DNA of 11,770 nt from UHGV virus genome UHGV-0308383. The stretch is one strand, 5' to 3'. The notes beneath the pieces are model-generated. The model made no database searches and was not told the DNA's origin. It saw only the letters and a program-made list of their open reading frames with translations. Positions 3,123-11,770 of this stretch are shown one piece after another; within the stretch, counting starts at the first letter, position 1, and each line of letters opens with the position of its first letter. The stretch comes from a virus. Both the position numbers and the translations under genes were made by a program.

Positions 3123-3704
3123 TCAAGAGTATTTTTTAGGCAGTAATGCACTGCGCTTGTTACTCTCTTCACTCAACAGTGCGATAAAGTCATCACCTTT
3201 ACCTTTCCACGGACTGAATGAAGGGATATGTTCACGAATGGCTTCAATCACTGTCTTCAGTGCTGTATTTTTCATCCACCAATCAGAATCTGCTGATGCT
3301 ACCACGTAGTATGCACCTTCATCTGTCAGGATTGGTTCTGATATACATGGTGAAATCAAAGTAGTGATGATTGAACCATTATTCATATAATATGTGCGCT
3401 TCATAACCTTTTCAAGAAGCTTGTGTAGGTCACCAAACAGTGTTACAAGTTCTTTGTGGTCAATGTCTTTTTCAAGATTTGCACGATACTTCAACAAAGC
3501 TGCATCAACTTCTCTGTCATTGAACTTGAAGTATTGGACTTCATCAACAAGACAAACGCTGATGTTGTTAACGTTCATGGTCAACTTGCAAACTTTTGCA
3601 GGGGAATTGATGCTTGGTTGAAAAAGTGCTATACACCCTTCAATGTTTCCAAAATGTTGAACTAGTGTTACTTGTGGAGTGATAAGCTGTTGCTCTTCGG
3701 ACAT
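3123..3704 (-). CDS. Hypothetical protein, 193 aa
   Basis: ATG at 3702..3704; stop of the upstream gene overlaps the start by 1 nt. Confidence 0.75.
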   Translation of the reverse strand: MSEEQQLITPQVTLVQHFGNIEGCIALFQPSINSPAKVCKLTMNVNNISVCLVDEVQYFKFNDREVDAALLKYRANLEKDIDHKELVTLFGDLHKLLEKVMKRTYYMNNGSIITTLISPCISEPILTDEGAYYVVASADSDWWMKNTALKTVIEAIREHIPSFSPWKGKGDDFIALLSEESNKRSALLPKKYS

Positions 3705-5171: not shown

Positions 5172-5636
5172 TTACTTTGGATATACACTGTCAAGATAAA
5201 TGTTAGCTTCCATTCTACGTCTATTTTTCAGGCCGTTTGAAGTGACCTTCTCACCTTTGACTGTAATCTTGTTCCACCACTGCATAGCTTCTGCACAACC
5301 TACCTTATTACCAGCATTGTGGCGCTTAATAAATGTAGAATCCTGCATAGCTGTGATACCAATGTTGTATGTTTCACTTACAAGTGCATCGAACTCATTC
5401 TGAGAGGTTGGAACCTTGATAGCTTTGTTCACTGCTGCAACAAACTTTTCAACATCTGCGAGAAGATACTGTTCAGCTTGTCCAGCCGTGATTTTCATAC
5501 CCATCTTAACAGGTTTTCCGTCAATACGGATTGTACCATACCCGATTGTTGGGATTCCGGCAGAGTCTTTGTAAGCCTCTAACTTCAGACCTTCAAAGAA
5601 CTTAATGGCTTCTAAGCCTTTTCTTGAGAGTTGCAT
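5172..5636 (-). CDS. Endolysin: phage lysozyme (glycoside hydrolase family 24, P22 gp19 / lambda R / T4 e type), 154 aa, no signal or SAR segment
   Basis: Motifs FEGLKLEAYKDSAGIPTIGYGT (catalytic Glu/Asp/Thr region) and GLKNRRRMEANIY are typical of this lysozyme family (recognised by eye); strong GGGGAGG Shine-Dalgarno; ATG overlaps the upstream stop (TAATG). Confidence 0.9.
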   Translation of the reverse strand: MQLSRKGLEAIKFFEGLKLEAYKDSAGIPTIGYGTIRIDGKPVKMGMKITAGQAEQYLLADVEKFVAAVNKAIKVPTSQNEFDALVSETYNIGITAMQDSTFIKRHNAGNKVGCAEAMQWWNKITVKGEKVTSNGLKNRRRMEANIYLDSVYPK

Positions 5637-6769
5637 TATGCCTCCCCTGTTGGGTTAACTGTAACTGTTGCCGCATTAGATGTTACAGAGCCACCTGCAC
5701 CAGTCACTACGCAAGTGTAGCTTCCTGCATCAGCAGCAGTTGCACCTTCTTTGGTGTAAGTTGCAGTCATTGCGTCTGGGATGTTTTCCTCACCCTTCTT
5801 CCACTGGTAACCTGTCGCACCTGTTGCCACAACGTTGAGTGTCAATGTCTCACCTTCAGTGATTTCTTGATTAGTTGGCTGTTGAGTGATTACAGGAAGT
5901 GCTTTAACGGTTACTGTTGCAGGGCTAGAAGTAACGGAACCACCTGCACCTGTTACAACGCAAGTATATGAACCTGCATCTGCTGGTAGTGCGCCAGACT
6001 TGCTATAAGTAGCGTTTGTAGCTGAAGGAATATTAGAGCCATCTTTCTTCCACTGATAGCCCGTTGCACCTGTGGCAGTCACTTCCAAGCTAATGTTGCC
6101 ACCTTCATTGATGGTCTGGCTAGAAGGTTGTTTGGTAATCACTGGTAAAGCGTTCACAGTAACTGTTGCTTCATCTGAGGTAACGCTTGTTCCAGCCTCT
6201 CCAGATACAACACAAGTGTATGAGCCAGCGTCAGAAGGTACTACAGATTGTTTTGTGTAAGTTGCAGAAGTGGCACTGGGGATATCCTCACCATCCTTCT
6301 TCCACTGATATCCAGTGGCGTTAGTTGCTAGAACACTTAGAGTAAGTGTGCCACCCTCATTGACTGTTTGTCCTGTTGGTTGCTGAGTAATTGCTGGTGG
6401 CTTAATAGCATCCTTCAGCTTAGCATTCAACATTGAGAATGGCTTCACTCTTGCCAGCCATTCACAGTAAATTGTGTCAACATCTTTACCGTTGATAATT
6501 GCATACTGTAAATCCATGAAGAAATCAGCAGTTCTCATCTGCGCGCCGACGCTGTAAAGGAGTTCATCACTAAATGGAACTTTGTAGTCTGGTTTGTAAT
6601 CAAACTTCTCAACTTCTGCAATATCAGCTTCAGGCCAATATGAACTATAGGTAAGTGGTAAAATAGCTTCTTGATATGTTCTAAAATCATATCTCTTACC
6701 AGCCTTTACATTTGCAATGAAGCCCTTTACAAATTCTTTGAAGTCTGGGTAAGTCTTTGCTTTAATCAT
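5636..6769 (-). CDS. Protein with three tandem Ig-like (I-set-like) domains at the C-terminus and an N-terminal domain paralogous to CDS 6766..7137; candidate virion-decoration or adhesion protein
   Basis: Three ~80-aa repeats with the pattern QP..Q...EG..L.L.V.ATGATGYQWKKDG..IP.AT.ATY.K.....ADAGSYTCVV.G.GGSVTS..ATVTV; N-terminal 130 aa aligns with 6766..7137 (MDLQYAI vs MDIQYVI, YWPEAD vs KWPEED). Confidence 0.85.
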   Translation of the reverse strand: MIKAKTYPDFKEFVKGFIANVKAGKRYDFRTYQEAILPLTYSSYWPEADIAEVEKFDYKPDYKVPFSDELLYSVGAQMRTADFFMDLQYAIINGKDVDTIYCEWLARVKPFSMLNAKLKDAIKPPAITQQPTGQTVNEGGTLTLSVLATNATGYQWKKDGEDIPSATSATYTKQSVVPSDAGSYTCVVSGEAGTSVTSDEATVTVNALPVITKQPSSQTINEGGNISLEVTATGATGYQWKKDGSNIPSATNATYSKSGALPADAGSYTCVVTGAGGSVTSSPATVTVKALPVITQQPTNQEITEGETLTLNVVATGATGYQWKKGEENIPDAMTATYTKEGATAADAGSYTCVVTGAGGSVTSNAATVTVNPTGEA

Positions 6770-8847: not shown

Positions 8848-10263
8848 ATGAGCGAGTTATTTAAACATGCGCACCTTCATGCAGGTCGAACTGAAAATGG
8901 TGCTGTAAACCATACTTCATCAATGTCTGCTCTGGTAGACTTCTACAAAGCCGCTGGCTCAAGCCGTAGCAATGTAGAAATCTTACCAGACCTGTTCTAC
9001 AAAGCTTTGCGTGAGGATGTTGATGTTGCAGTTCGTATTTTACTGCATATGCGAGATGTACGAGAAGGTATGGGTGAGCGTAAAGCTTTCAGAACTGTTT
9101 TACTTCAAGCAATCGAAGACAAAGTTTTAGAACCTACACAGGTACTTCGTATTATGGATAAGGTTGCAGAACTTGGTCGTTTTGATGACTTCAAAATCTT
9201 CGTAGGCACTCGTTTTGAGACAGATGCCTTCAAACATTTAGAAGCAGCGTTACTAGACCCTGCAACAGCAGGTTTAGCAGCCAAGTGGCTACCACGAGTA
9301 AAACCACGCCACAAACAGTTTGTAAAACGTTTCTGTAAGTTTGCAAACTTAAGCGAGAAAGAGTACCGAACACTGCTATCTGCACTGTCTGATACGGTTG
9401 AGCAAAAAATCTCTGCTAATGAGTTTGGTAAGATTGACTACAGCAAGATTCCTTCACTCGCTGCTGCACGTTACCAAAAACTCTTTAACCGTAAAGATGG
9501 AGAACGCTACAAAGCTTACATCGAGTCATTATCAAAAGGTGAGGCTAAGATTAACGCTGGTGCTATTTACCCATACGATGTGATTAAATCTATTAAGTAT
9601 GGTAATGCAGATGTTGCTAATGAACAGTGGAAAGCACTTCCAAACTGGATGGCAGAAGGTGAGAACATCTTGTGTATGACTGATGTCTCAAGCTCAATGT
9701 CTTGGGTGAATTTCGGTTCAATCACGGCTCTTGATATTGGTGTATCTCTTGCCCTGTATGTAGCAGAACGCAACACAGGCTGCTTTAAGAATGAGTTAAT
9801 GGTTTATTCAACAAACCCTCACTTCATCGAACTGAGTGGTGATTTACGAAACCGTCATCGTCAGGTAATGCGTTATACTGAATATGGTTCAACTAACTTG
9901 CAAGCAGCTTTTGACCGCATTCTTGAGACAGGTAAGAGAAACAACTTGACTCAGAAAGATATGCCAAGTAAGCTTATCATCTTCTCTGATATGGAGTTCA
10001 ATCAGGTTGACGGTGCAAATGGTTGTACAAACTTTGAAGCAATTCGTAGTAAGTACAAAAAAGCTGGATACGAAATGCCACAACTGGTATTCTGGTACTT
10101 AGCAAACCGTAATGGTACTTGCGAAGTGTCTGTTAAGGATAACGGTGTAGCAATGGTATCAGGGTTCTCTCCAGCCACTTTAAAAGCTCTGCTTGGTGGT
10201 GAGAAGTTTGACCCAACCAGCGTAATGCTCAAAGCAGTAATGATTGACCGTTACATCTGGTAA
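8848..10263 (+). CDS. DUF2828-like protein, 471 aa: N-terminal helical region with a TENGA...LVDFY motif and a C-terminal von Willebrand factor A-like domain with a MIDAS-type motif
   Basis: MIDAS-like D-x-S-x-S (ILCMTDVSSSMS) and a later hydrophobic strand plus SD (LIIFSDMEF); N-terminal TENGAVNHTSSMSALVDFY...LRED...ILLHMRDVREGMGERKAF resembles the DUF2828 family (recalled, not searched); AGAAGAGAG upstream. Confidence 0.85.
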   Translation: MSELFKHAHLHAGRTENGAVNHTSSMSALVDFYKAAGSSRSNVEILPDLFYKALREDVDVAVRILLHMRDVREGMGERKAFRTVLLQAIEDKVLEPTQVLRIMDKVAELGRFDDFKIFVGTRFETDAFKHLEAALLDPATAGLAAKWLPRVKPRHKQFVKRFCKFANLSEKEYRTLLSALSDTVEQKISANEFGKIDYSKIPSLAAARYQKLFNRKDGERYKAYIESLSKGEAKINAGAIYPYDVIKSIKYGNADVANEQWKALPNWMAEGENILCMTDVSSSMSWVNFGSITALDIGVSLALYVAERNTGCFKNELMVYSTNPHFIELSGDLRNRHRQVMRYTEYGSTNLQAAFDRILETGKRNNLTQKDMPSKLIIFSDMEFNQVDGANGCTNFEAIRSKYKKAGYEMPQLVFWYLANRNGTCEVSVKDNGVAMVSGFSPATLKALLGGEKFDPTSVMLKAVMIDRYIW

Positions 10264-10276
10264 AAAGTTTTAAAAA

Positions 10277-10310
10277 GGGTATTGACAATATGTTTAATAC
10301 CCTTTAATAT
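10277..10310 (+). promoter_or_regulatory. Near-consensus sigma70 promoter: A-rich UP, TTGACA (10282..10287), 17-bp spacer, TAATAT (10305..10310); the -35 region lies inside a 7-bp-stem hairpin (GGGTATT 10277..10283 / AATACCC 10296..10302) that may also terminate CDS 8848..10263
   Basis: Motifs and spacing seen in sequence. Confidence 0.55.
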
Positions 10311-10372
10311 GTTCTACATAGAAACGAAATGAGAGCTTTTCTAAGATACTGAAAAATATTTTAAAAAAGTTC

Positions 10373-10405
10373 TTGACAACCACTAAAAAATAATGTTAAA
10401 GTGGT
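10373..10405 (+). promoter_or_regulatory. Candidate sigma70 promoter for the tRNA cluster: A-rich UP, TTGACA (10373..10378), 18-bp spacer, TAAAGT (10397..10402); overlaps a hairpin (ACCACT 10379..10384 / AGTGGT 10400..10405)
   Basis: Same TTGACA-N18-TAAAGT architecture as the element at 8779; about 25 nt upstream of the first tRNA. Confidence 0.45.
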
Positions 10406-10427
10406 TACATAGAGTTTGAAAAGTTTA

Positions 10428-10505
10428 TCTCTGTTTAGCTCAGCTTGGTAGAGCGTTCCGTTTGGGGCGGTAAGGCCGGAGGTTCAAGTCCTCCAACAGA
10501 GACCA
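10428..10505 (+). tRNA. tRNA-Pro (anticodon UGG), CCA encoded
   Basis: Manual cloverleaf: 7-bp acceptor stem, D-arm GCTC/GAGC with GG, anticodon loop TTTGGGG (anticodon 10463..10465), T-arm GGAGG-TTCAAGT-CCTCC; one T-T mismatch in the anticodon stem. Confidence 0.8.
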
Positions 10506-10512
10506 AATTAAT

Positions 10513-10590
10513 GTTCCAGTAGACAAAATGGTAAAGTCACCACTCTTTCAAAGTGGATATCTGAGGGTTCAAATCCCTTCTGGAACGCCA
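10513..10590 (+). tRNA. tRNA-Glu (anticodon UUC), CCA encoded, discriminator G
   Basis: Acceptor GTTCCAG/CTGGAAC, anticodon arm CCACT-CTTTCAA-AGTGG, T-loop TTCAAAT. Confidence 0.75.
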
Positions 10591-10597
10591 GTTTTGA

Positions 10598-10670
10598 CAG
10601 AAGACCAATTACAGCAAACTTAATCTTATTCATCTGAAGGTAAATCGGACAAAGAAGAGATTTGGTCTGG
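10598..10670 (+). repeat. Inter-tRNA repeat module I: CAGAAGACCAA-TTACAGCAA...TTGGTCTGG with a 7-bp terminal stem (AGACCAA 10602..10608 / TTGGTCT 10662..10668)
   Basis: Shares 5' and 3' motifs and terminal complementarity with modules II-IV. Confidence 0.6.
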
Positions 10671-10681
10671 TCATTAAGAAT

Positions 10682-10758
10682 TGCGGGTATAGAGAAAGGG
10701 CGTCTCACATGTCTCATTAGCATGGTATCGGCAGGTTCGACTCCTGCACCCGCCTCCA
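10682..10758 (+). tRNA. tRNA with anticodon CAU (Met or lysidine-dependent Ile2), CCA encoded; noncanonical acceptor (T1-C72 mismatch or 6-bp stem) and U at position 37
   Basis: D-arm GAGA-AAGGGCG-TCTC, anticodon arm CATGT-CTCATTA-GCATG (anticodon 10715..10717), T-arm GCAGG-TTCGACT-CCTGC, then ACCCGCC-T-CCA. Confidence 0.55.
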
Positions 10759-10764
10759 ATTTTG

Positions 10765-10824
10765 CAGAAGACCGTATTCAGCAACAAAATACTTTTTGCG
10801 GATAAAAGAAAAAACACGGTCTGG
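10765..10824 (+). repeat. Inter-tRNA repeat module II: CAGAAGACCGT-ATTCAGCAA...ACGGTCTGG with a 7-bp terminal stem (AGACCGT 10769..10775 / ACGGTCT 10816..10822)
   Basis: Same architecture as modules I, III and IV. Confidence 0.6.
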
Positions 10825-10835
10825 CAATGTATTAA

Positions 10836-10912
10836 GGTTAGGAAGCACATAAGGTATGTGCGGTCGCCTGTTAAGCGAATGGCACAGGGTTCGAATCCCT
10901 GACTAACCGCCA
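10836..10912 (+). tRNA. tRNA-Asn (anticodon GUU), CCA encoded
   Basis: Acceptor GGTTAGG/ACTAACC (one G-A mismatch), D-arm GCAC/GTGC, anticodon loop CTGTTAA, T-arm CAGGG-TTCGAAT-CCCTG, discriminator G. Confidence 0.7.
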
Positions 10913-10920
10913 AATTAAAT

Positions 10921-11008
10921 GTGTCGTTATCCCGTAGATGGTAGCGGTGGGGACTGTAAATCTCTTGTCATTGAGACTCGGTAGGTTCGACTCCTACACG
11001 GCACACCA
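10921..11008 (+). tRNA. tRNA-Tyr (anticodon GUA), class II with a long variable arm, CCA encoded
   Basis: 85 nt plus CCA; acceptor GTGTCGT/ACGGCAC (one G-U pair), anticodon arm GGGGA-CTGTAAA-TCTCT, variable-arm hairpin GTC/GAC, T-arm GTAGG-TTCGACT-CCTAC. Confidence 0.75.
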
Positions 11009-11013
11009 ATAAA

Positions 11014-11091
11014 GGTTATGTAGTTTAATCTGGTTAAAATACTCCCCTGTCACGGGAGATGATGAGGGTTCAAATCCCTTCGTAACCGCCA
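11014..11091 (+). tRNA. tRNA-Asp (anticodon GUC), CCA encoded, discriminator G
   Basis: Acceptor GGTTATG/CGTAACC (one G-U pair), anticodon arm CTCCC-CTGTCAC-GGGAG, T-arm GAGGG-TTCAAAT-CCCTT. Confidence 0.75.
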
Positions 11092-11179
11092 AATTATAAT
11101 AAGTATTTCAAAATGATGTTTTGAGAGGGCTATTTAGCCCCTCCCTTAAAGAGTTCTTACGAGTATTCTTTAAAGGAGC

Positions 11180-11255
11180 GGAAGACCAAATTCAGCAAAT
11201 ATGTATGATATTTTCAAGCCAATTTAATTTTGAAAAAATTTAAAACTTGGTCTGG
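11180..11255 (+). repeat. Inter-tRNA repeat module III: GGAAGACCAA-ATTCAGCAA...TTGGTCTGG with a 7-bp terminal stem (AGACCAA 11183..11189 / TTGGTCT 11247..11253)
   Basis: Same architecture as modules I, II and IV. Confidence 0.6.
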
Positions 11256-11268
11256 CTCAACAAATTTA

Positions 11269-11401
11269 CAGAAGACCGTTTACAGCAAAAACTTAAACAA
11301 TCTATTTCTCCGGTAAAGAAAAGGCGAAGGTTCGATTCCTTCACTCGGCAGATGTCGAGTTGGTGTAATGGTAGCACTTAAGATGATAAACAACGGTCTG
11401 G
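11269..11401 (+). repeat. Inter-tRNA repeat module IV (expanded, 133 nt): CAGAAGACCGTT-TACAGCAA...AACGGTCTGG with an 8-bp terminal stem, enclosing split tRNA-like fragments
   Basis: AGACCGTT 11273..11280 pairs with AACGGTCT 11392..11399; same end motifs as modules I-III. Confidence 0.6.
11326..11377 (+). pseudogene. Split, circularly permuted tRNA-like remnant: T-arm plus 3' acceptor strand (GAAGG-TTCGATT-CCTTC-ACTCGGC) sits immediately upstream of the complementary 5' acceptor strand plus D-arm (GTCGAGT-TG-GTGT-AATGGTA-GCAC)
   Basis: ACTCGGC (11343..11349) is complementary to GTCGAGT (11354..11360) with one G-U pair; no intact anticodon arm found by eye. Confidence 0.4.
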
Positions 11402-11420
11402 TAATTATCTTTGTAGATAA
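11402..11420. repeat. 19-bp direct repeat AATTATCTTTGTAGATAAG (second copy at 11648..11666); near-palindromic core TTATCT-TTGT-AGATAA
   Basis: Identical 19-mers seen at both positions. Confidence 0.7.
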
Positions 11421-11422
11421 GT

Positions 11423-11503
11423 TATTAAGCTTACCTGTGAGTATGCGACCACAAAGGGTGGATGGGTAAATTCTAGATTTAAACCCAAAAAGGCACATCG
11501 CTA
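11423..11503. repeat. Left arm of a perfect 81-bp inverted repeat (partner 11690..11770, truncated by the window end)
   Basis: Reverse complement of 11690..11770 equals 11423..11503; identity breaks at 11504 versus 11689. Confidence 0.85.
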
Positions 11504-11566
11504 GTTAGAGAAACTGTTGAGTGGGTGTTTCCAGCCGCGCAGGTGTTTCTCAGTTAAGGGTGAATT

Positions 11567-11642
11567 TGGTAGAAGTGGAGGGATTCGAACCCATCGCCTG
11601 TCAGATTAAAAGTCTGCCGCATCACCATTCTGCTACACTTCC
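11567..11642 (-). tRNA. tRNA-like gene on the minus strand, anticodon UUU (Lys-like), CCA encoded; noncanonical T-stem (3 G-C pairs flanked by mismatches) and G1-U72
   Basis: Minus strand reads GGAAGTG-TA-GCAGAATGGTGATGC-G-GCAGA-CTTTTAA-TCTGA-...GGG-TTCGAAT-CCC...CACTTCT-A-CCA; the anticodon loop matches the tRNA-Lys pattern. Confidence 0.5.
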
Positions 11643-11647
11643 ATTAA

Positions 11648-11666
11648 ATTATCTTTGTAGATAAGC
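11648..11666. repeat. Second copy of the 19-bp direct repeat AATTATCTTTGTAGATAAG
   Basis: Identical to 11402..11420. Confidence 0.7.
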
Positions 11667-11689
11667 TACCCAGACTTGCTTAAGGTCTG

Positions 11690-11770
11690 TAGCGATGTGC
11701 CTTTTTGGGTTTAAATCTAGAATTTACCCATCCACCCTTTGTGGTCGCATACTCACAGGTAAGCTTAATA
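11690..11770. repeat. Right arm of the perfect 81-bp inverted repeat (partner 11423..11503); runs to the window end
   Basis: Exact reverse complement of the left arm. Confidence 0.85.

What the first reader, a model, noticed from the sequence alone, without database searches (positions are those of the whole stretch)
11269..11401. Split, circularly permuted tRNA-like remnant inside an expanded repeat module
Within module IV a T-arm and 3' acceptor strand (11326..11349) lie directly upstream of a complementary 5' acceptor strand and D-arm (11354..11377), separated by 4 nt. This is the reverse of normal tRNA order, as in permuted tRNA or two-piece tmRNA genes. It could be a relic of tandem tRNA duplication and deletion, or a functional permuted or trans-assembled RNA. 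The whole unit is closed by an 8-bp stem (AGACCGTT / AACGGTCT).
Basis: partly seen in the sequence, partly recalled or inferred. Interest (0 to 1): 0.65.

Follow-up and report, generated by a model that had tools for sequence, protein, structure and literature searches.

The report
Phage Y RNA with tRNA-like domain
The "permuted tRNA remnant" is real but is most likely the tRNA-mimicking half of a Y RNA, a small non-coding RNA that partners with the Ro60-like ring protein encoded 1 kb upstream in this Felix O1-like phage; three shorter sister RNAs sit among the neighbouring tRNA genes.

Summary

It is not a decaying relic. Across Ounavirinae the acceptor helix keeps pairing through three compensatory double changes. 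The same topology recurs beside homologous genes in unrelated phages, always on the gene's strand.

That gene (window 8848-10263, DUF2828+DUF7788) has a Ro60/TROVE fold; the top 12 PDB matches are all Ro60. Ends in a stem followed by T, closed acceptor and D is the defining architecture of bacterial YrlA Y RNAs, which have been described as resembling "circularly permuted tRNAs". Rfam's YrlA model matches the homologous elements in other phages at E~1e-5, below its gathering score, and does not match the window copy.

All four window modules share a terminal stem plus a UUACAGCAA-type motif (UUCAGCAA in II and III). This motif is conserved family-wide and differs from YrlA's GNCGAA. I read it as the binding module for the Ro60-like protein.

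A 2024 preprint noted that Bas63 gp130 is Ro60-like and guessed that Y RNAs hide among the tRNAs; none was identified. Verdict: a new variant of a known kind. Transcription and binding are inferred, not shown.

The parts
8848..10263 (+). Gene for a 471-aa Ro60-like protein (helical ring domain plus vWA/MIDAS domain), the proposed protein partner of the RNAs
   Evidence: Pfam DUF2828 + DUF7788. PHROG 850 'RNA-binding protein'. AF2 model pLDDT 86.8, pTM 0.87. The Foldseek top 12 PDB hits are all Ro60/TROVE, E 1e-8 to 2e-6, TMq 0.41-0.66. Invariant D279-V-S281-x-S283 MIDAS motif. 4 of 30 relatives weakly match Pfam vWA_Ro60. The Bas63 ortholog gp130 is reported as Ro60-like and a counter to the Ppl defence (10.1101/2024.10.10.617714).
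10282..10402 (+). Two sigma-70-like promoter matches between the Ro60-like gene and the first tRNA; possible start of the tRNA/Y-RNA transcript (weak evidence)
   Evidence: TTGACA-17-TAATAT at 10282-10310 and TTGACA-18-TAAAGT with TG at 10373-10402. The number found is not above the shuffle expectation.
10598..10670 (+). Module I: short Y-RNA-like element (terminal stem AGACCAA/UUGGUCU plus UUACAGCAA motif, no tRNA-like domain)
   Evidence: Repeat families D2 and D9. R1 model hit 30.8 bits, E 1.6e-4. Fold. Conserved in all Ounavirinae checked.
10765..10824 (+). Module II: short Y-RNA-like element (stem AGACCGU/ACGGUCU plus UUCAGCAA)
   Evidence: Repeat families D2, D3, D6 and D8. R1 hit 33.3 bits, E 3.7e-5. 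Fold.
11179..11255 (+). Module III: short Y-RNA-like element (stem AGACCAA/UUGGUCU plus UUCAGCAA)
   Evidence: Repeat families D2, D3 and D6. Fold. Not reported by the R1 model at E<=1 in the window; an equivalent hit in Moogle L005 1117-1193 scored 25.9 bits.
11269..11401 (+). Module IV: long YrlA-type Y RNA candidate, made of the binding module plus a tRNA-like domain (the finding)
   Evidence: Fold. Covariation. R1 hit 147 bits.
11273..11288 (+). 5' strand of the terminal stem (11273-11280, AGACCGUU) followed by the conserved motif UACAGCAA (11281-11288)
   Evidence: Across 54 full-length family matches the consensus is A-G-stem-U-W-C-A-G-C-A-A: U 48, C 47, A 42, G 52, C 48, A 49, A 43 of 54.
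11305..11321 (+). Variable ('V', anticodon-arm-like) hairpin UUUCU-CCGGUAA-AGAAA
   Evidence: Loop length and sequence vary among relatives, and pairing in the alignment is 83.8%.
11326..11342 (+). T-arm GAAGG-UUCGAUU-CCUUC
   Evidence: Invariant in the 16 Ounavirinae variants. Covaries across the family at 99.5% paired.
11343..11360 (+). Acceptor-like 7-bp hairpin ACUCGGC-AGAU-GUCGAGU; a possible RNase P site lies between 11353 and 11354
   Evidence: Three pairs show changes on both sides and 99.1% of cells are paired. Mooglevirus variants carry G-CCA-AACA in the loop.
11363..11377 (+). D-arm GUGU-AAUGGUA-GCAC, preceded by U8-G9 equivalents at 11361-11362
   Evidence: Invariant stem in Ounavirinae. 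Covaries across the family at 92.9% paired.
11392..11401 (+). 3' strand of the terminal stem (AACGGUCU, 11392-11399) plus the conserved GG tail
   Evidence: Family-wide, all 8 stem pairs show compensatory changes. The conserved ...C-U-G end is shown.

Best explanation
Window 11269-11401 encodes a YrlA-class Y RNA. It is a small non-coding RNA of about 130 nt built from two modules. Module 1 is the 8-bp stem formed by its 5' and 3' ends plus the adjacent single-stranded UUACAGCAA motif. Module 2 is a tRNA-like domain in 'circularly permuted' order: variable hairpin, T-arm, closed 7-bp acceptor-like stem, D-arm.

I propose that module 1 is the docking site for the Ro60-like ring protein encoded 1 kb upstream (8848-10263). 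The three shorter repeats (modules I-III) carry only module 1, so they would be YrlB-like sister Y RNAs for the same protein.

The RNAs are probably transcribed with the tRNA cluster and cut out of the precursor. The ribonucleoprotein would then use the tRNA-like domain to engage a factor that recognises tRNA shape. Known bacterial Ro60-Y RNA complexes tether PNPase in this way. In Felixounavirus Bas63 the orthologous protein counters the Ppl anti-phage system.

Because the acceptor-like stem has the full 7 bp, RNase P may open it, as shown for M. smegmatis YrlA. That would give a two-piece RNA with a tRNA-like 3' end. Mooglevirus copies already encode CCA at that position.

Shown here: the sequence architecture, covariation, gene-RNA co-occurrence across phages, and the Ro60 fold of the protein. 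Inferred: transcription, protein binding, processing and the effector.
For: (1) Architecture: the MFE and centroid folds give terminal stem, V, T, AS and D. This is the same order as S. Typhimurium YrlA (AC 15-27/83-93, T 33-49, AS 50-64, D 67-81; 10.1101/312249).

(2) Selection on structure within Ounavirinae: 16 distinct variants are 95.7% paired versus about 48% when the partners are slid. The acceptor helix has 3 pairs with double changes (UA/AU/CG, GC/UA, GU/UG/UA).

(3) Partner gene: the top 12 PDB fold matches are all Ro60, including a phage Ro60. The MIDAS motif is invariant.

(4) Generality: a model trained only on Ounavirinae found 63 matches at E<=1 in 75 unrelated loci carrying the gene plus the window, all on the gene's strand. 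Many are tRNA-like versions with E down to 3e-13. Many others are 56-68-nt stem+motif versions 20-40 nt after the stop codon. In that alignment 28 of 29 pairs show compensatory changes and 91% of cells are paired versus 39-46% when slid.

(5) An independent strict scanner gave 9 hits on the gene strand, 0 on the other strand, and 0.1 expected.

(6) Rfam's own YrlA model matches the homologous elements in L051, L044 and L077 at 39-42 bits, E 7e-6 to 5e-5. In L044 and L077 the match spans the full model length; in L051 it covers model positions 24-84 of 114.

(7) The UUACAGCAA motif is conserved next to a stem whose sequence is free to vary.

(8) Literature: Y RNAs lie near and on the same strand as Ro60, and the 7-bp-AS YrlA is cut by RNase P and gains CCA (PMC4201824). 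Bas63 gp130 is Ro60-like, and its authors suspected unidentified Y RNAs among the tRNAs.
Against: There is no expression, end-mapping or binding data. Rfam YrlA does not match the window copy even at E<=10, and its matches to homologs are below the 69-bit gathering score. YrlA's GNCGAA(N)G motif is absent. The protein has no sequence-level TROVE match. The family alignment A4 was fitted to the model, so its pair counts lean towards the structure, and it includes a few tRNA-pair false positives (for example L089 969-1085 and L062 5435-5519). Two natural isolates (FG1m, ESCO45) have lost module IV yet keep the gene and modules I and II, so the tRNA-like RNA is dispensable at least in some hosts. 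Module III was not detected by the model in the window.
Confidence: 0.75

Rival explanations
1. It is a tRNA-shaped RNA that works without the Ro60-like protein. It could be a processing or punctuation signal that recruits RNase P or other tRNA enzymes to cut the long tRNA-cluster transcript. It could also be a free decoy that soaks up host tRNA-targeting defence nucleases. The shared stem+motif would then have some other role, such as an RNase site.
For: It lies inside a tRNA array. T-arm plus a 7-bp acceptor stem is the minimal RNase P substrate (established knowledge; the M. smegmatis YrlA precedent is). Mooglevirus copies carry a tRNA-like G-CCA-spacer junction. Deletion variants keep the protein without this RNA.
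Against: The stem+motif module occurs immediately after the Ro60-like gene's stop codon in many phages that have no tRNA genes within 4 kb, such as L070, L052, L048, L047, L055, L045, L057 and L093. That ties the module to the gene and not to tRNA processing. Most homologs cap the acceptor stem with tight GNRA-like loops (GAAA, GUAA), which are poor RNase P sites.
Confidence: 0.12
2. It is a non-functional relic: two tandem copies of a tRNA gene that lost the 5' part of the first and the 3' part of the second.
For: The de-permuted sequence is a good cloverleaf (tRNA-Thr-GGU by ARAGORN). The Mooglevirus linker G-CCA-AACA looks like an ordinary tRNA-tRNA junction of this cluster. A tRNA origin is plausible and is also suggested for YrlA.
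Against: Compensatory double substitutions keep all 7 acceptor pairs across three genera. The T- and D-arms are 100% conserved where overall identity falls to 72%. The breakpoints are identical in every genome. The same topology occurs in unrelated phages with unrelated sequences. The element is framed by a covarying terminal stem and a conserved motif.
Confidence: 0.04
3. It is a true permuted tRNA gene whose transcript is circularised or ligated and then opened at the acceptor stem to give a working tRNA-Thr(GGU), as in Cyanidioschyzon merolae.
For: The 3'-before-5' order is present and all four arms exist. The SUSP2 and Sf13 variants have a canonical CUGGUAA loop.
Against: The anticodon-like loop is 6 nt in many Felixounaviruses, reads CAA or AUG in others, and is unrecognisable in Mooglevirus. 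The window copy has C, not U, at position 33. The breakpoint at 26/27 has no bulge-helix-bulge; the closing helix is a plain 8-bp stem separated from the arms by 24-nt and 14-nt single strands. Bacteria have no known tRNA splicing endonuclease (established knowledge; also noted). Homologs in other phages lack an anticodon arm altogether.
Confidence: 0.03
4. The modules act as DNA: small inverted-repeat mobile elements or recombination sites that shuffle tRNA cassettes. Module IV would be one that captured tRNA fragments.
For: The modules have terminal inverted repeats and are interspersed among tRNA genes. Deletions in FG1m and ESCO45 end in or next to modules.
Against: Stem sequences differ between copies and between phages but stay complementary, G-U pairs included. 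That points to selection on RNA pairing, not on a transposase-binding end. All 63 model matches are on one strand. There are no target-site duplications or transposase genes.
Confidence: 0.03

Closest known systems
YrlA (Y RNA-like A), Rfam RF02553; bacterial and phage Y RNAs with a tRNA-like domain (Chen et al. 2014, PMC4201824; Wang et al. 2018, 10.1101/312249)
   Same: The 5' and 3' ends pair in a terminal stem. A T-arm, closed acceptor-like stem and D-arm follow in that order, which is the 'circularly permuted tRNA' layout. The T-loop (UUCGAUU) and D-loop (GG) are tRNA-like. The RNA is encoded within a few kb of, and on the same strand as, a Ro60-fold protein. It is accompanied by shorter sister RNAs that share only the protein-binding module, as with YrlB. 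The 7-bp acceptor-like stem matches M. smegmatis YrlA, which is cut by RNase P and receives CCA.
   Different: The conserved motif beside the stem is UUACAGCAA, not GNCGAA(N)G. The window copy does not score with Rfam's YrlA model, and its homologs score below the gathering threshold. The partner protein belongs to a different sequence family (DUF2828/DUF7788) and is recognisable as Ro60 only by fold. The RNAs are embedded in a phage tRNA array, with four paralogs. An extra anticodon-arm-like hairpin is present in Ounavirinae. Some copies encode CCA in the acceptor loop.
Thermus phage phiLo Ro60 with Yrl1 and Yrl2 (PMC12135203)
   Same: A phage-encoded Ro60-fold protein (among the top structural matches) with two adjacent Y-RNA-like genes on the same strand. 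It is proposed to hijack host PNPase as a counter-defence.
   Different: The phiLo RNAs were picked by their CGAA motif and stem-bulge-stem shape and lie upstream of the gene. No tRNA-like domain is described for them in the passages read.
Permuted tRNA genes of Cyanidioschyzon merolae, green algae and Thermofilum pendens
   Same: The 3' part of the tRNA is encoded before the 5' part. [quoted passage not shown]
   Different: Those have a bulge-helix-bulge splice signal, are circularised by the splicing machinery and become decoding tRNAs with a conserved anticodon. Here there is no such signal, the host has no such enzyme, and the anticodon is not conserved.
Two-piece (permuted) tmRNA
   Same: It is a permuted tRNA-like gene in bacteria and phages whose product can stay as two base-paired pieces after processing. 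One relative's locus (L069) carries such a tmRNA a few kb away.
   Different: There is no tag reading frame, no tmRNA pseudoknots, and no match to the tmRNA models.

Membership tests
YrlA / Y RNA | The 5' and 3' ends form a terminal stem, and the distal domain has T-arm, closed acceptor-like stem and D-arm in that order | tested here: met
   Fold, coordinates, pair counts. The order is the same as in the S. Typhimurium YrlA crystal structure description.
YrlA / Y RNA | Encoded near (<4 kb) and on the same strand as a Ro60 ortholog | tested here: met
   The gene at 8848-10263 (+) ends 1.0 kb upstream. Its Ro60 fold is shown. The same linkage and strand were found in unrelated phages. Caveat: the protein is Ro60-like by fold, not by sequence.
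YrlA / Y RNA | Conserved GNCGAA(N0-1)G motif near the 5' end (the proposed Ro60 contact) | tested here: not met
   The motif is absent. UUACAGCAA occupies the equivalent position and is conserved family-wide. In the Rfam alignment the YrlA 5' motif region aligns poorly.
YrlA / Y RNA | Scores at or above Rfam RF02553's gathering threshold (69 bits) | tested here: not met
   There is no YrlA match in the window at E<=10. Homologous elements in L051, L044 and L077 score 29.6-41.9 bits, E 7e-6 to 0.025.
YrlA / Y RNA | Bound and stabilised by the Ro60 protein; carries tRNA modifications (TruB, DusA) | not testable with these tools
   This needs RNA immunoprecipitation, EMSA and modification mapping.
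Ro60 / TROVE protein (partner) | Helical-repeat ring domain followed by a vWA domain with a MIDAS site | tested here: met
   Full-length Foldseek matches to Xenopus Ro60, D. radiodurans Rsr and phage phiLo Ro60, TMq 0.41-0.66. The invariant DxSxS motif and a conserved T and D are shown.
Ro60 / TROVE protein (partner) | Sequence match to Pfam TROVE (PF05731) | tested here: not met
   Only DUF2828 and DUF7788 match. 4 of 30 relatives weakly hit vWA_Ro60, best E 0.002. There are no PDB sequence hits.
Permuted tRNA gene (C. merolae type) | The 3' half lies upstream of the 5' half, and the de-permuted sequence is a cloverleaf | tested here: met
   ARAGORN calls the de-permuted window and SUSP2 variants tRNA-Thr(GGU).
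Permuted tRNA gene (C. merolae type) | Conserved 7-nt anticodon loop and anticodon, giving a decoding product | tested here: not met
   The loop is 6 nt in many Felixounaviruses. The anticodon is GGU, CAA or undefined among close relatives.
Permuted tRNA gene (C. merolae type) | Bulge-helix-bulge motif at the paired termini for the splicing endonuclease | tested here: not met
   The termini form a plain 8-bp helix with long single-stranded linkers.
Two-piece tmRNA | Recognised by tmRNA models; contains a tag reading frame | tested here: not met
   ARAGORN and Rfam report no tmRNA in the window.

The most novel reading that the evidence does not exclude
The Ro60-like protein and its tRNA-shaped Y RNA form a phage counter-defence particle. 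In this reading RNase P opens the 7-bp acceptor-like stem. The RNA gains, or already encodes, a CCA end. The resulting two-piece tRNA mimic, held on the ring protein, then acts as a decoy or tether for a host immune effector or RNA-decay enzyme that recognises tRNA ends. That would explain how gp130 neutralises the Ppl system, and it would define a widespread, previously unrecognised Y RNA class with its own binding motif (UUACAGCAA) in large phages.
Probability: 0.15. Interest if true: 0.85.

Novelty: new variant of a known kind. Interest (0 to 1): 0.55.

Why it matters
Ro60-Y RNA particles are conserved from bacteria to humans, yet their effectors remain poorly understood. This analysis links a large family of phage proteins of 'unknown function' to a specific, easily recognised RNA partner family with a new conserved motif. 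The protein family is DUF2828/DUF7788, with more than 2,300 relatives and 588 loci confirmed in IMG/VR.

It supplies candidate Y RNAs of the kind the Bas63 study only guessed at. That makes the anti-Ppl activity of gp130 directly testable at the RNA level. It also corrects a recurring mis-annotation, the 129-nt 'tRNA-Thr-GGT' and the small hypothetical ORFs laid over these RNAs. Finally, it gives a covariance-model seed for annotating these RNAs in phage genomes.

Tried and rejected
- ARAGORN and Rfam at gathering thresholds see nothing at 11269-11401. Only a weak partial tRNA hit appears (22 bits).
- Weak Rfam 'Dicty Class I RNA' hits on modules I and II (20-24 bits) were judged chance resemblance of a stem-closed small RNA.
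- Sequence searches of the protein against PDB chains, by phmmer and by profile, found nothing. Only the fold search was informative.
- A sigma-70 promoter reading of the TTGACA/TTTACA at module starts was considered and dropped. There is no consistent -10, the flank is A-rich in other phages, and the promoter scan finds none at the modules.
- A helix CUUAA/UUAAG (11293-11297 with 11379-11383) that would mimic an anticodon stem is not conserved in SUSP2 or Sf13, so it is not claimed.
- Pairing between the 3' end of one module and the 5' end of the next was rejected, because the variable stem bases covary within modules and not between them (sequence).
- The supplement of Chen et al. 2014 with the phage list is not held. 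I therefore could not check directly whether any Ounavirinae were in their set. Passages in PMC12135203 name mycobacteriophages, CcrColossus and Bacillus phage G.
- No second covariance model was built.

Full report
**What the window is.** The 11.8-kb window comes from a Felix O1-like myophage (Ounavirinae, Felixounavirus). Positions 10400-11503 are 97-98.6% identical to KhF3, JH2, LTH02 and many others. ARAGORN finds six tRNA genes on the + strand between 10429 and 11091, all with encoded CCA, and one on the - strand near the end. Four repeated 'modules' of the form CAGAAGACCnnn-UnCAGCAA...nnnGGUCUGG lie between the tRNA genes at 10598-10670, 10765-10824, 11179-11255 and 11269-11401. The finding concerns the last and longest.

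**Checking the observation.**
- T-arm: 11326-11342.
- 3' acceptor strand: 11343-11349.
- Linker AGAT: 11350-11353.
- 5' acceptor strand: 11354-11360.
- D-arm: 11363-11377.
- 8-bp closing stem: 11273-11280 with 11392-11399.

RNAfold's minimum-energy and centroid structures both contain exactly these helices. They also contain a further hairpin, UUUCU-CCGGUAA-AGAAA, at 11305-11321. With that hairpin the element is a complete tRNA circularly permuted between positions 26 and 27. When I rejoined the two parts in tRNA order, ARAGORN called it tRNA-Thr(GGU).

The folding energy alone is not unusual (z = -1.47), so the case rests on comparative evidence.

**Not a relic.** I collected 16 distinct variants of the element from Felixounavirus, Suspvirus and Mooglevirus genomes.
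- The T-arm and D-arm stems are invariant even where overall identity falls to 72%.
- The acceptor-like helix exists in three states, each fully paired: ACUCGGC/GUCGAGU, ACACGUU/GGCGUGU and ACCCUUC/GAAGGGU.
- Three of its seven pairs change on both sides, and 99.1% of cells are paired. For the whole structure, 95.7% of cells pair, against about 48% when the partners are slid.
- A decaying pair of tRNA fragments would not keep this pairing.

The anticodon-like loop, by contrast, is not maintained. It is CCGGUAA here, CGGUAA (six bases) in many Felixounaviruses, CUGGUAA, CUCAAAA or CUAUGAA elsewhere, and unrecognisable in Mooglevirus. So the element is selected as a folded RNA, but not as a decoding tRNA.

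**The neighbouring gene.** The ORF that ends about 165 nt before the first tRNA gene (8848-10263, 471 aa) matches Pfam DUF2828 and DUF7788 and PHROG 850 'RNA-binding protein'.
- Sequence searches against solved structures find nothing.
- A confident AlphaFold model (pLDDT 86.8, pTM 0.87) has as its 12 best PDB matches only Ro60/TROVE proteins over their full length: Xenopus Ro60, Deinococcus Rsr and Thermus phage phiLo Ro60, E 1e-8 to 2e-6. Isolated vWA domains follow.
- The vWA MIDAS motif DxSxS is invariant in the family.
- Four of 30 relatives weakly match Pfam's Ro60 vWA model.

Ro60 proteins bind Y RNAs. Bacterial YrlA Y RNAs have their ends in a stem and a distal domain ordered T-arm, closed acceptor-like stem, D-arm (PMC4201824).

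**Does the link hold outside this phage group?** I fetched 75 IMG/VR loci from unrelated phages that encode 39-47%-identical relatives of the protein. In 27 of the 60 loci scanned, the gene lies directly upstream of a tRNA cluster on the same strand.

A strict purpose-built scanner required a T-arm, then a 7/7-bp hairpin, two bases, and a D-arm with GG. It found nine elements in eight of these loci, all on the gene's strand and several capped by GAAA or GUAA. It found none on the other strand or in reversed sequence, against 0.1 expected after shuffling the sequence downstream of real T-arms.

Their flanks show the same plan as the window element. A 7-8-bp terminal stem has a different sequence in every phage but is always complementary. 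It is followed immediately by UUCAGCAA, UUCCGCAA or UACAGCAA.

A covariance model built only from the Ounavirinae alignment then found 63 matches at E<=1 in these loci and the window, every one on the gene's strand.
- They fall into long tRNA-like versions (E down to 3e-13) and short 56-68-nt versions. The short ones consist of the stem, UUACAGCAA and an A-rich loop.
- The short versions typically start 20-40 nt after the gene's stop codon, in phages with no tRNA genes nearby.
- About 21-23 of the 75 loci have a full-length match at E<=0.01, and about half have one at E<=1.
- A few matches are tRNA-pair false positives.

In the model-derived alignment, 28 of 29 pairs show changes on both sides and 91% of cells pair, against 39-46% when slid. 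This alignment is fitted to the model, so these figures lean towards the structure. The consensus next to the stem is U-W-C-A-G-C-A-A, with 42-52 of 54 sequences at each fixed position.

**Independent recognition as YrlA.** Rfam's YrlA model (RF02553) matches the homologous elements in three of the unrelated phages at 39-42 bits, E 7e-6 to 5e-5. Two of these matches (L044, L077) span the full model length and the third (L051) is partial. These scores are below its 69-bit gathering score. The alignment fits the T-AS-D core and not the 5' motif. The window copy itself is not matched even at E<=10. The tRNA-like domain is therefore YrlA-like, while the presumed protein-binding module is different.

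**Interpretation.**
- Module IV is best read as a YrlA-type Y RNA.
- Modules I-III are best read as short YrlB-like Y RNAs.
- All four carry a common docking module, the terminal stem plus UUACAGCAA, for the Ro60-like protein.
- Two sigma-70-like promoters lie between the gene and the first tRNA (weak evidence), so the RNAs are probably made as part of the tRNA-cluster transcript.
- By analogy with known Ro60-Y RNA particles, the tRNA-like domain would engage a factor that recognises tRNA shape. PNPase is the precedent.
- Because the acceptor-like stem has seven pairs, RNase P cleavage and CCA maturation are possible, as in M. smegmatis YrlA. Mooglevirus copies and one copy in L098 encode G-CCA-spacer at exactly that place.
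- None of these steps is shown here.

**What is already known.** The PhageMaP preprint (10.1101/2024.10.10.617714) reported that gp130 of the Felixounavirus Bas63 is structurally similar to Ro60 and counters the Ppl defence system. [quoted passage not shown] No RNA was identified.

Searches of the held literature found no description of these RNAs or of the UUACAGCAA motif. Phage Y RNAs are known only for TROVE-annotated proteins in other phage groups. I therefore rate this a new variant of a known kind. It has a known architecture and logic. Its binding motif is new, its partner is a sequence-divergent protein family, and it sits inside tRNA arrays.

**Evidence that tempers the claim.**
- There are no expression or binding data.
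- Two natural isolates (FG1m, ESCO45) have deleted module IV, and module III with it, while keeping the gene and modules I and II. The tRNA-like RNA is therefore accessory.
- Module III was not picked up by the model in the window.

**Rivals.**
- Ro60-independent tRNA-shaped processing signal or decoy (0.12). The short modules sit tightly against the gene in tRNA-free contexts, which argues against this.
- Relic of tandem tRNAs (0.04). This is contradicted by the covariation, although a tRNA origin is likely.
- Genuine permuted tRNA-Thr gene (0.03). This is contradicted by the unstable anticodon loop, the absence of a bulge-helix-bulge and the lack of the required enzymes in bacteria.
- DNA-level mobile element (0.03). 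This is contradicted by strand bias and by covariation that includes G-U pairs.

**Side observation on the window itself.** Positions 11501-11770 are the reverse complement of the true downstream sequence (99.3% to KhF3). This creates a perfect 81-nt inverted repeat that runs to the last base of the window. It is a fold-back chimera at a contig end. It puts tRNA-Lys(UUU) on the wrong strand and does not touch the finding.

Noticed in passing
window 11501-11770 (with 11423-11503): The last 270 bases are the reverse complement of the genuine downstream sequence (99.3% to KhF3). This produces a perfect 81-nt inverted repeat ending at the window's last base and places tRNA-Lys(UUU) on the - strand, whereas it is on + in all relatives. 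It looks like a fold-back chimera at a contig end, with a CTA microhomology at the junction.
   Followed up: yes
window 11403-11421 and 11647-11665; KhF3 L002 3507-3525 / 3633-3651: In the genuine arrangement, AATTATCTTTGTAGATAAG has an inverted partner just before tRNA-Lys, enclosing about 107 nt. This is a long 19-bp hairpin directly after module IV and may be another structured RNA. In the window it appears as a direct repeat because of the chimera.
   Followed up: partly
L070 5394-5457, L048 5405-5471, L055 5412-5474, L057 1530-1593: The short stem+UUACAGCAA modules of other phages carry two or three further AAGCAA repeats in their A-rich loop, which may be additional protein contacts.
   Followed up: no
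L069 243-707: A phage locus with the Ro60-like gene also carries a permuted two-piece tmRNA about 3.3 kb upstream (ARAGORN tmRNA*, tag ANTNFALAA; Rfam tmRNA_permuted 71.7 bits).
   Followed up: no
L003 560-688 (Escherichia phage ASO1B); also REP7, REP8 records: Public records annotate a 129-nt 'tRNA-Thr-GGT' (tRNAscan-SE) across modules III-IV. Other records lay small hypothetical ORFs over the modules. These are likely mis-annotations of the Y-RNA candidates.
   Followed up: partly
window 10682-10758 and 10921-11008: tRNA-Met(CAU) and tRNA-Tyr(GUA), both called by ARAGORN, do not reach Rfam's tRNA gathering score. Relatives annotate the Tyr gene as 'pseudo' or 'tRNA-OTHER'. They may be unusual or degenerate tRNAs.
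   Followed up: no
L115 (Salmonella phage FG1m) 2330-2600; L116 (Escherichia phage ESCO45) 2350-3000: These natural deletion variants have lost module IV and module III but keep the Ro60-like gene and modules I and II. ESCO45 retains only the last ~30 nt of module IV, fused after tRNA-Tyr.
   Followed up: yes
L040-L099 (IMG/VR loci): In 27 of the 60 loci scanned, from unrelated phages, the DUF2828/Ro60-like gene lies immediately upstream of a tRNA gene cluster on the same strand. This gene-order association goes beyond Ounavirinae.
   Followed up: partly
window 5636-6769 (-): A 377-aa ORF with three tandem immunoglobulin-like domains (Pfam Ig_3, Ig_2, I-set), probably a capsid or tail decoration protein.
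   Followed up: no
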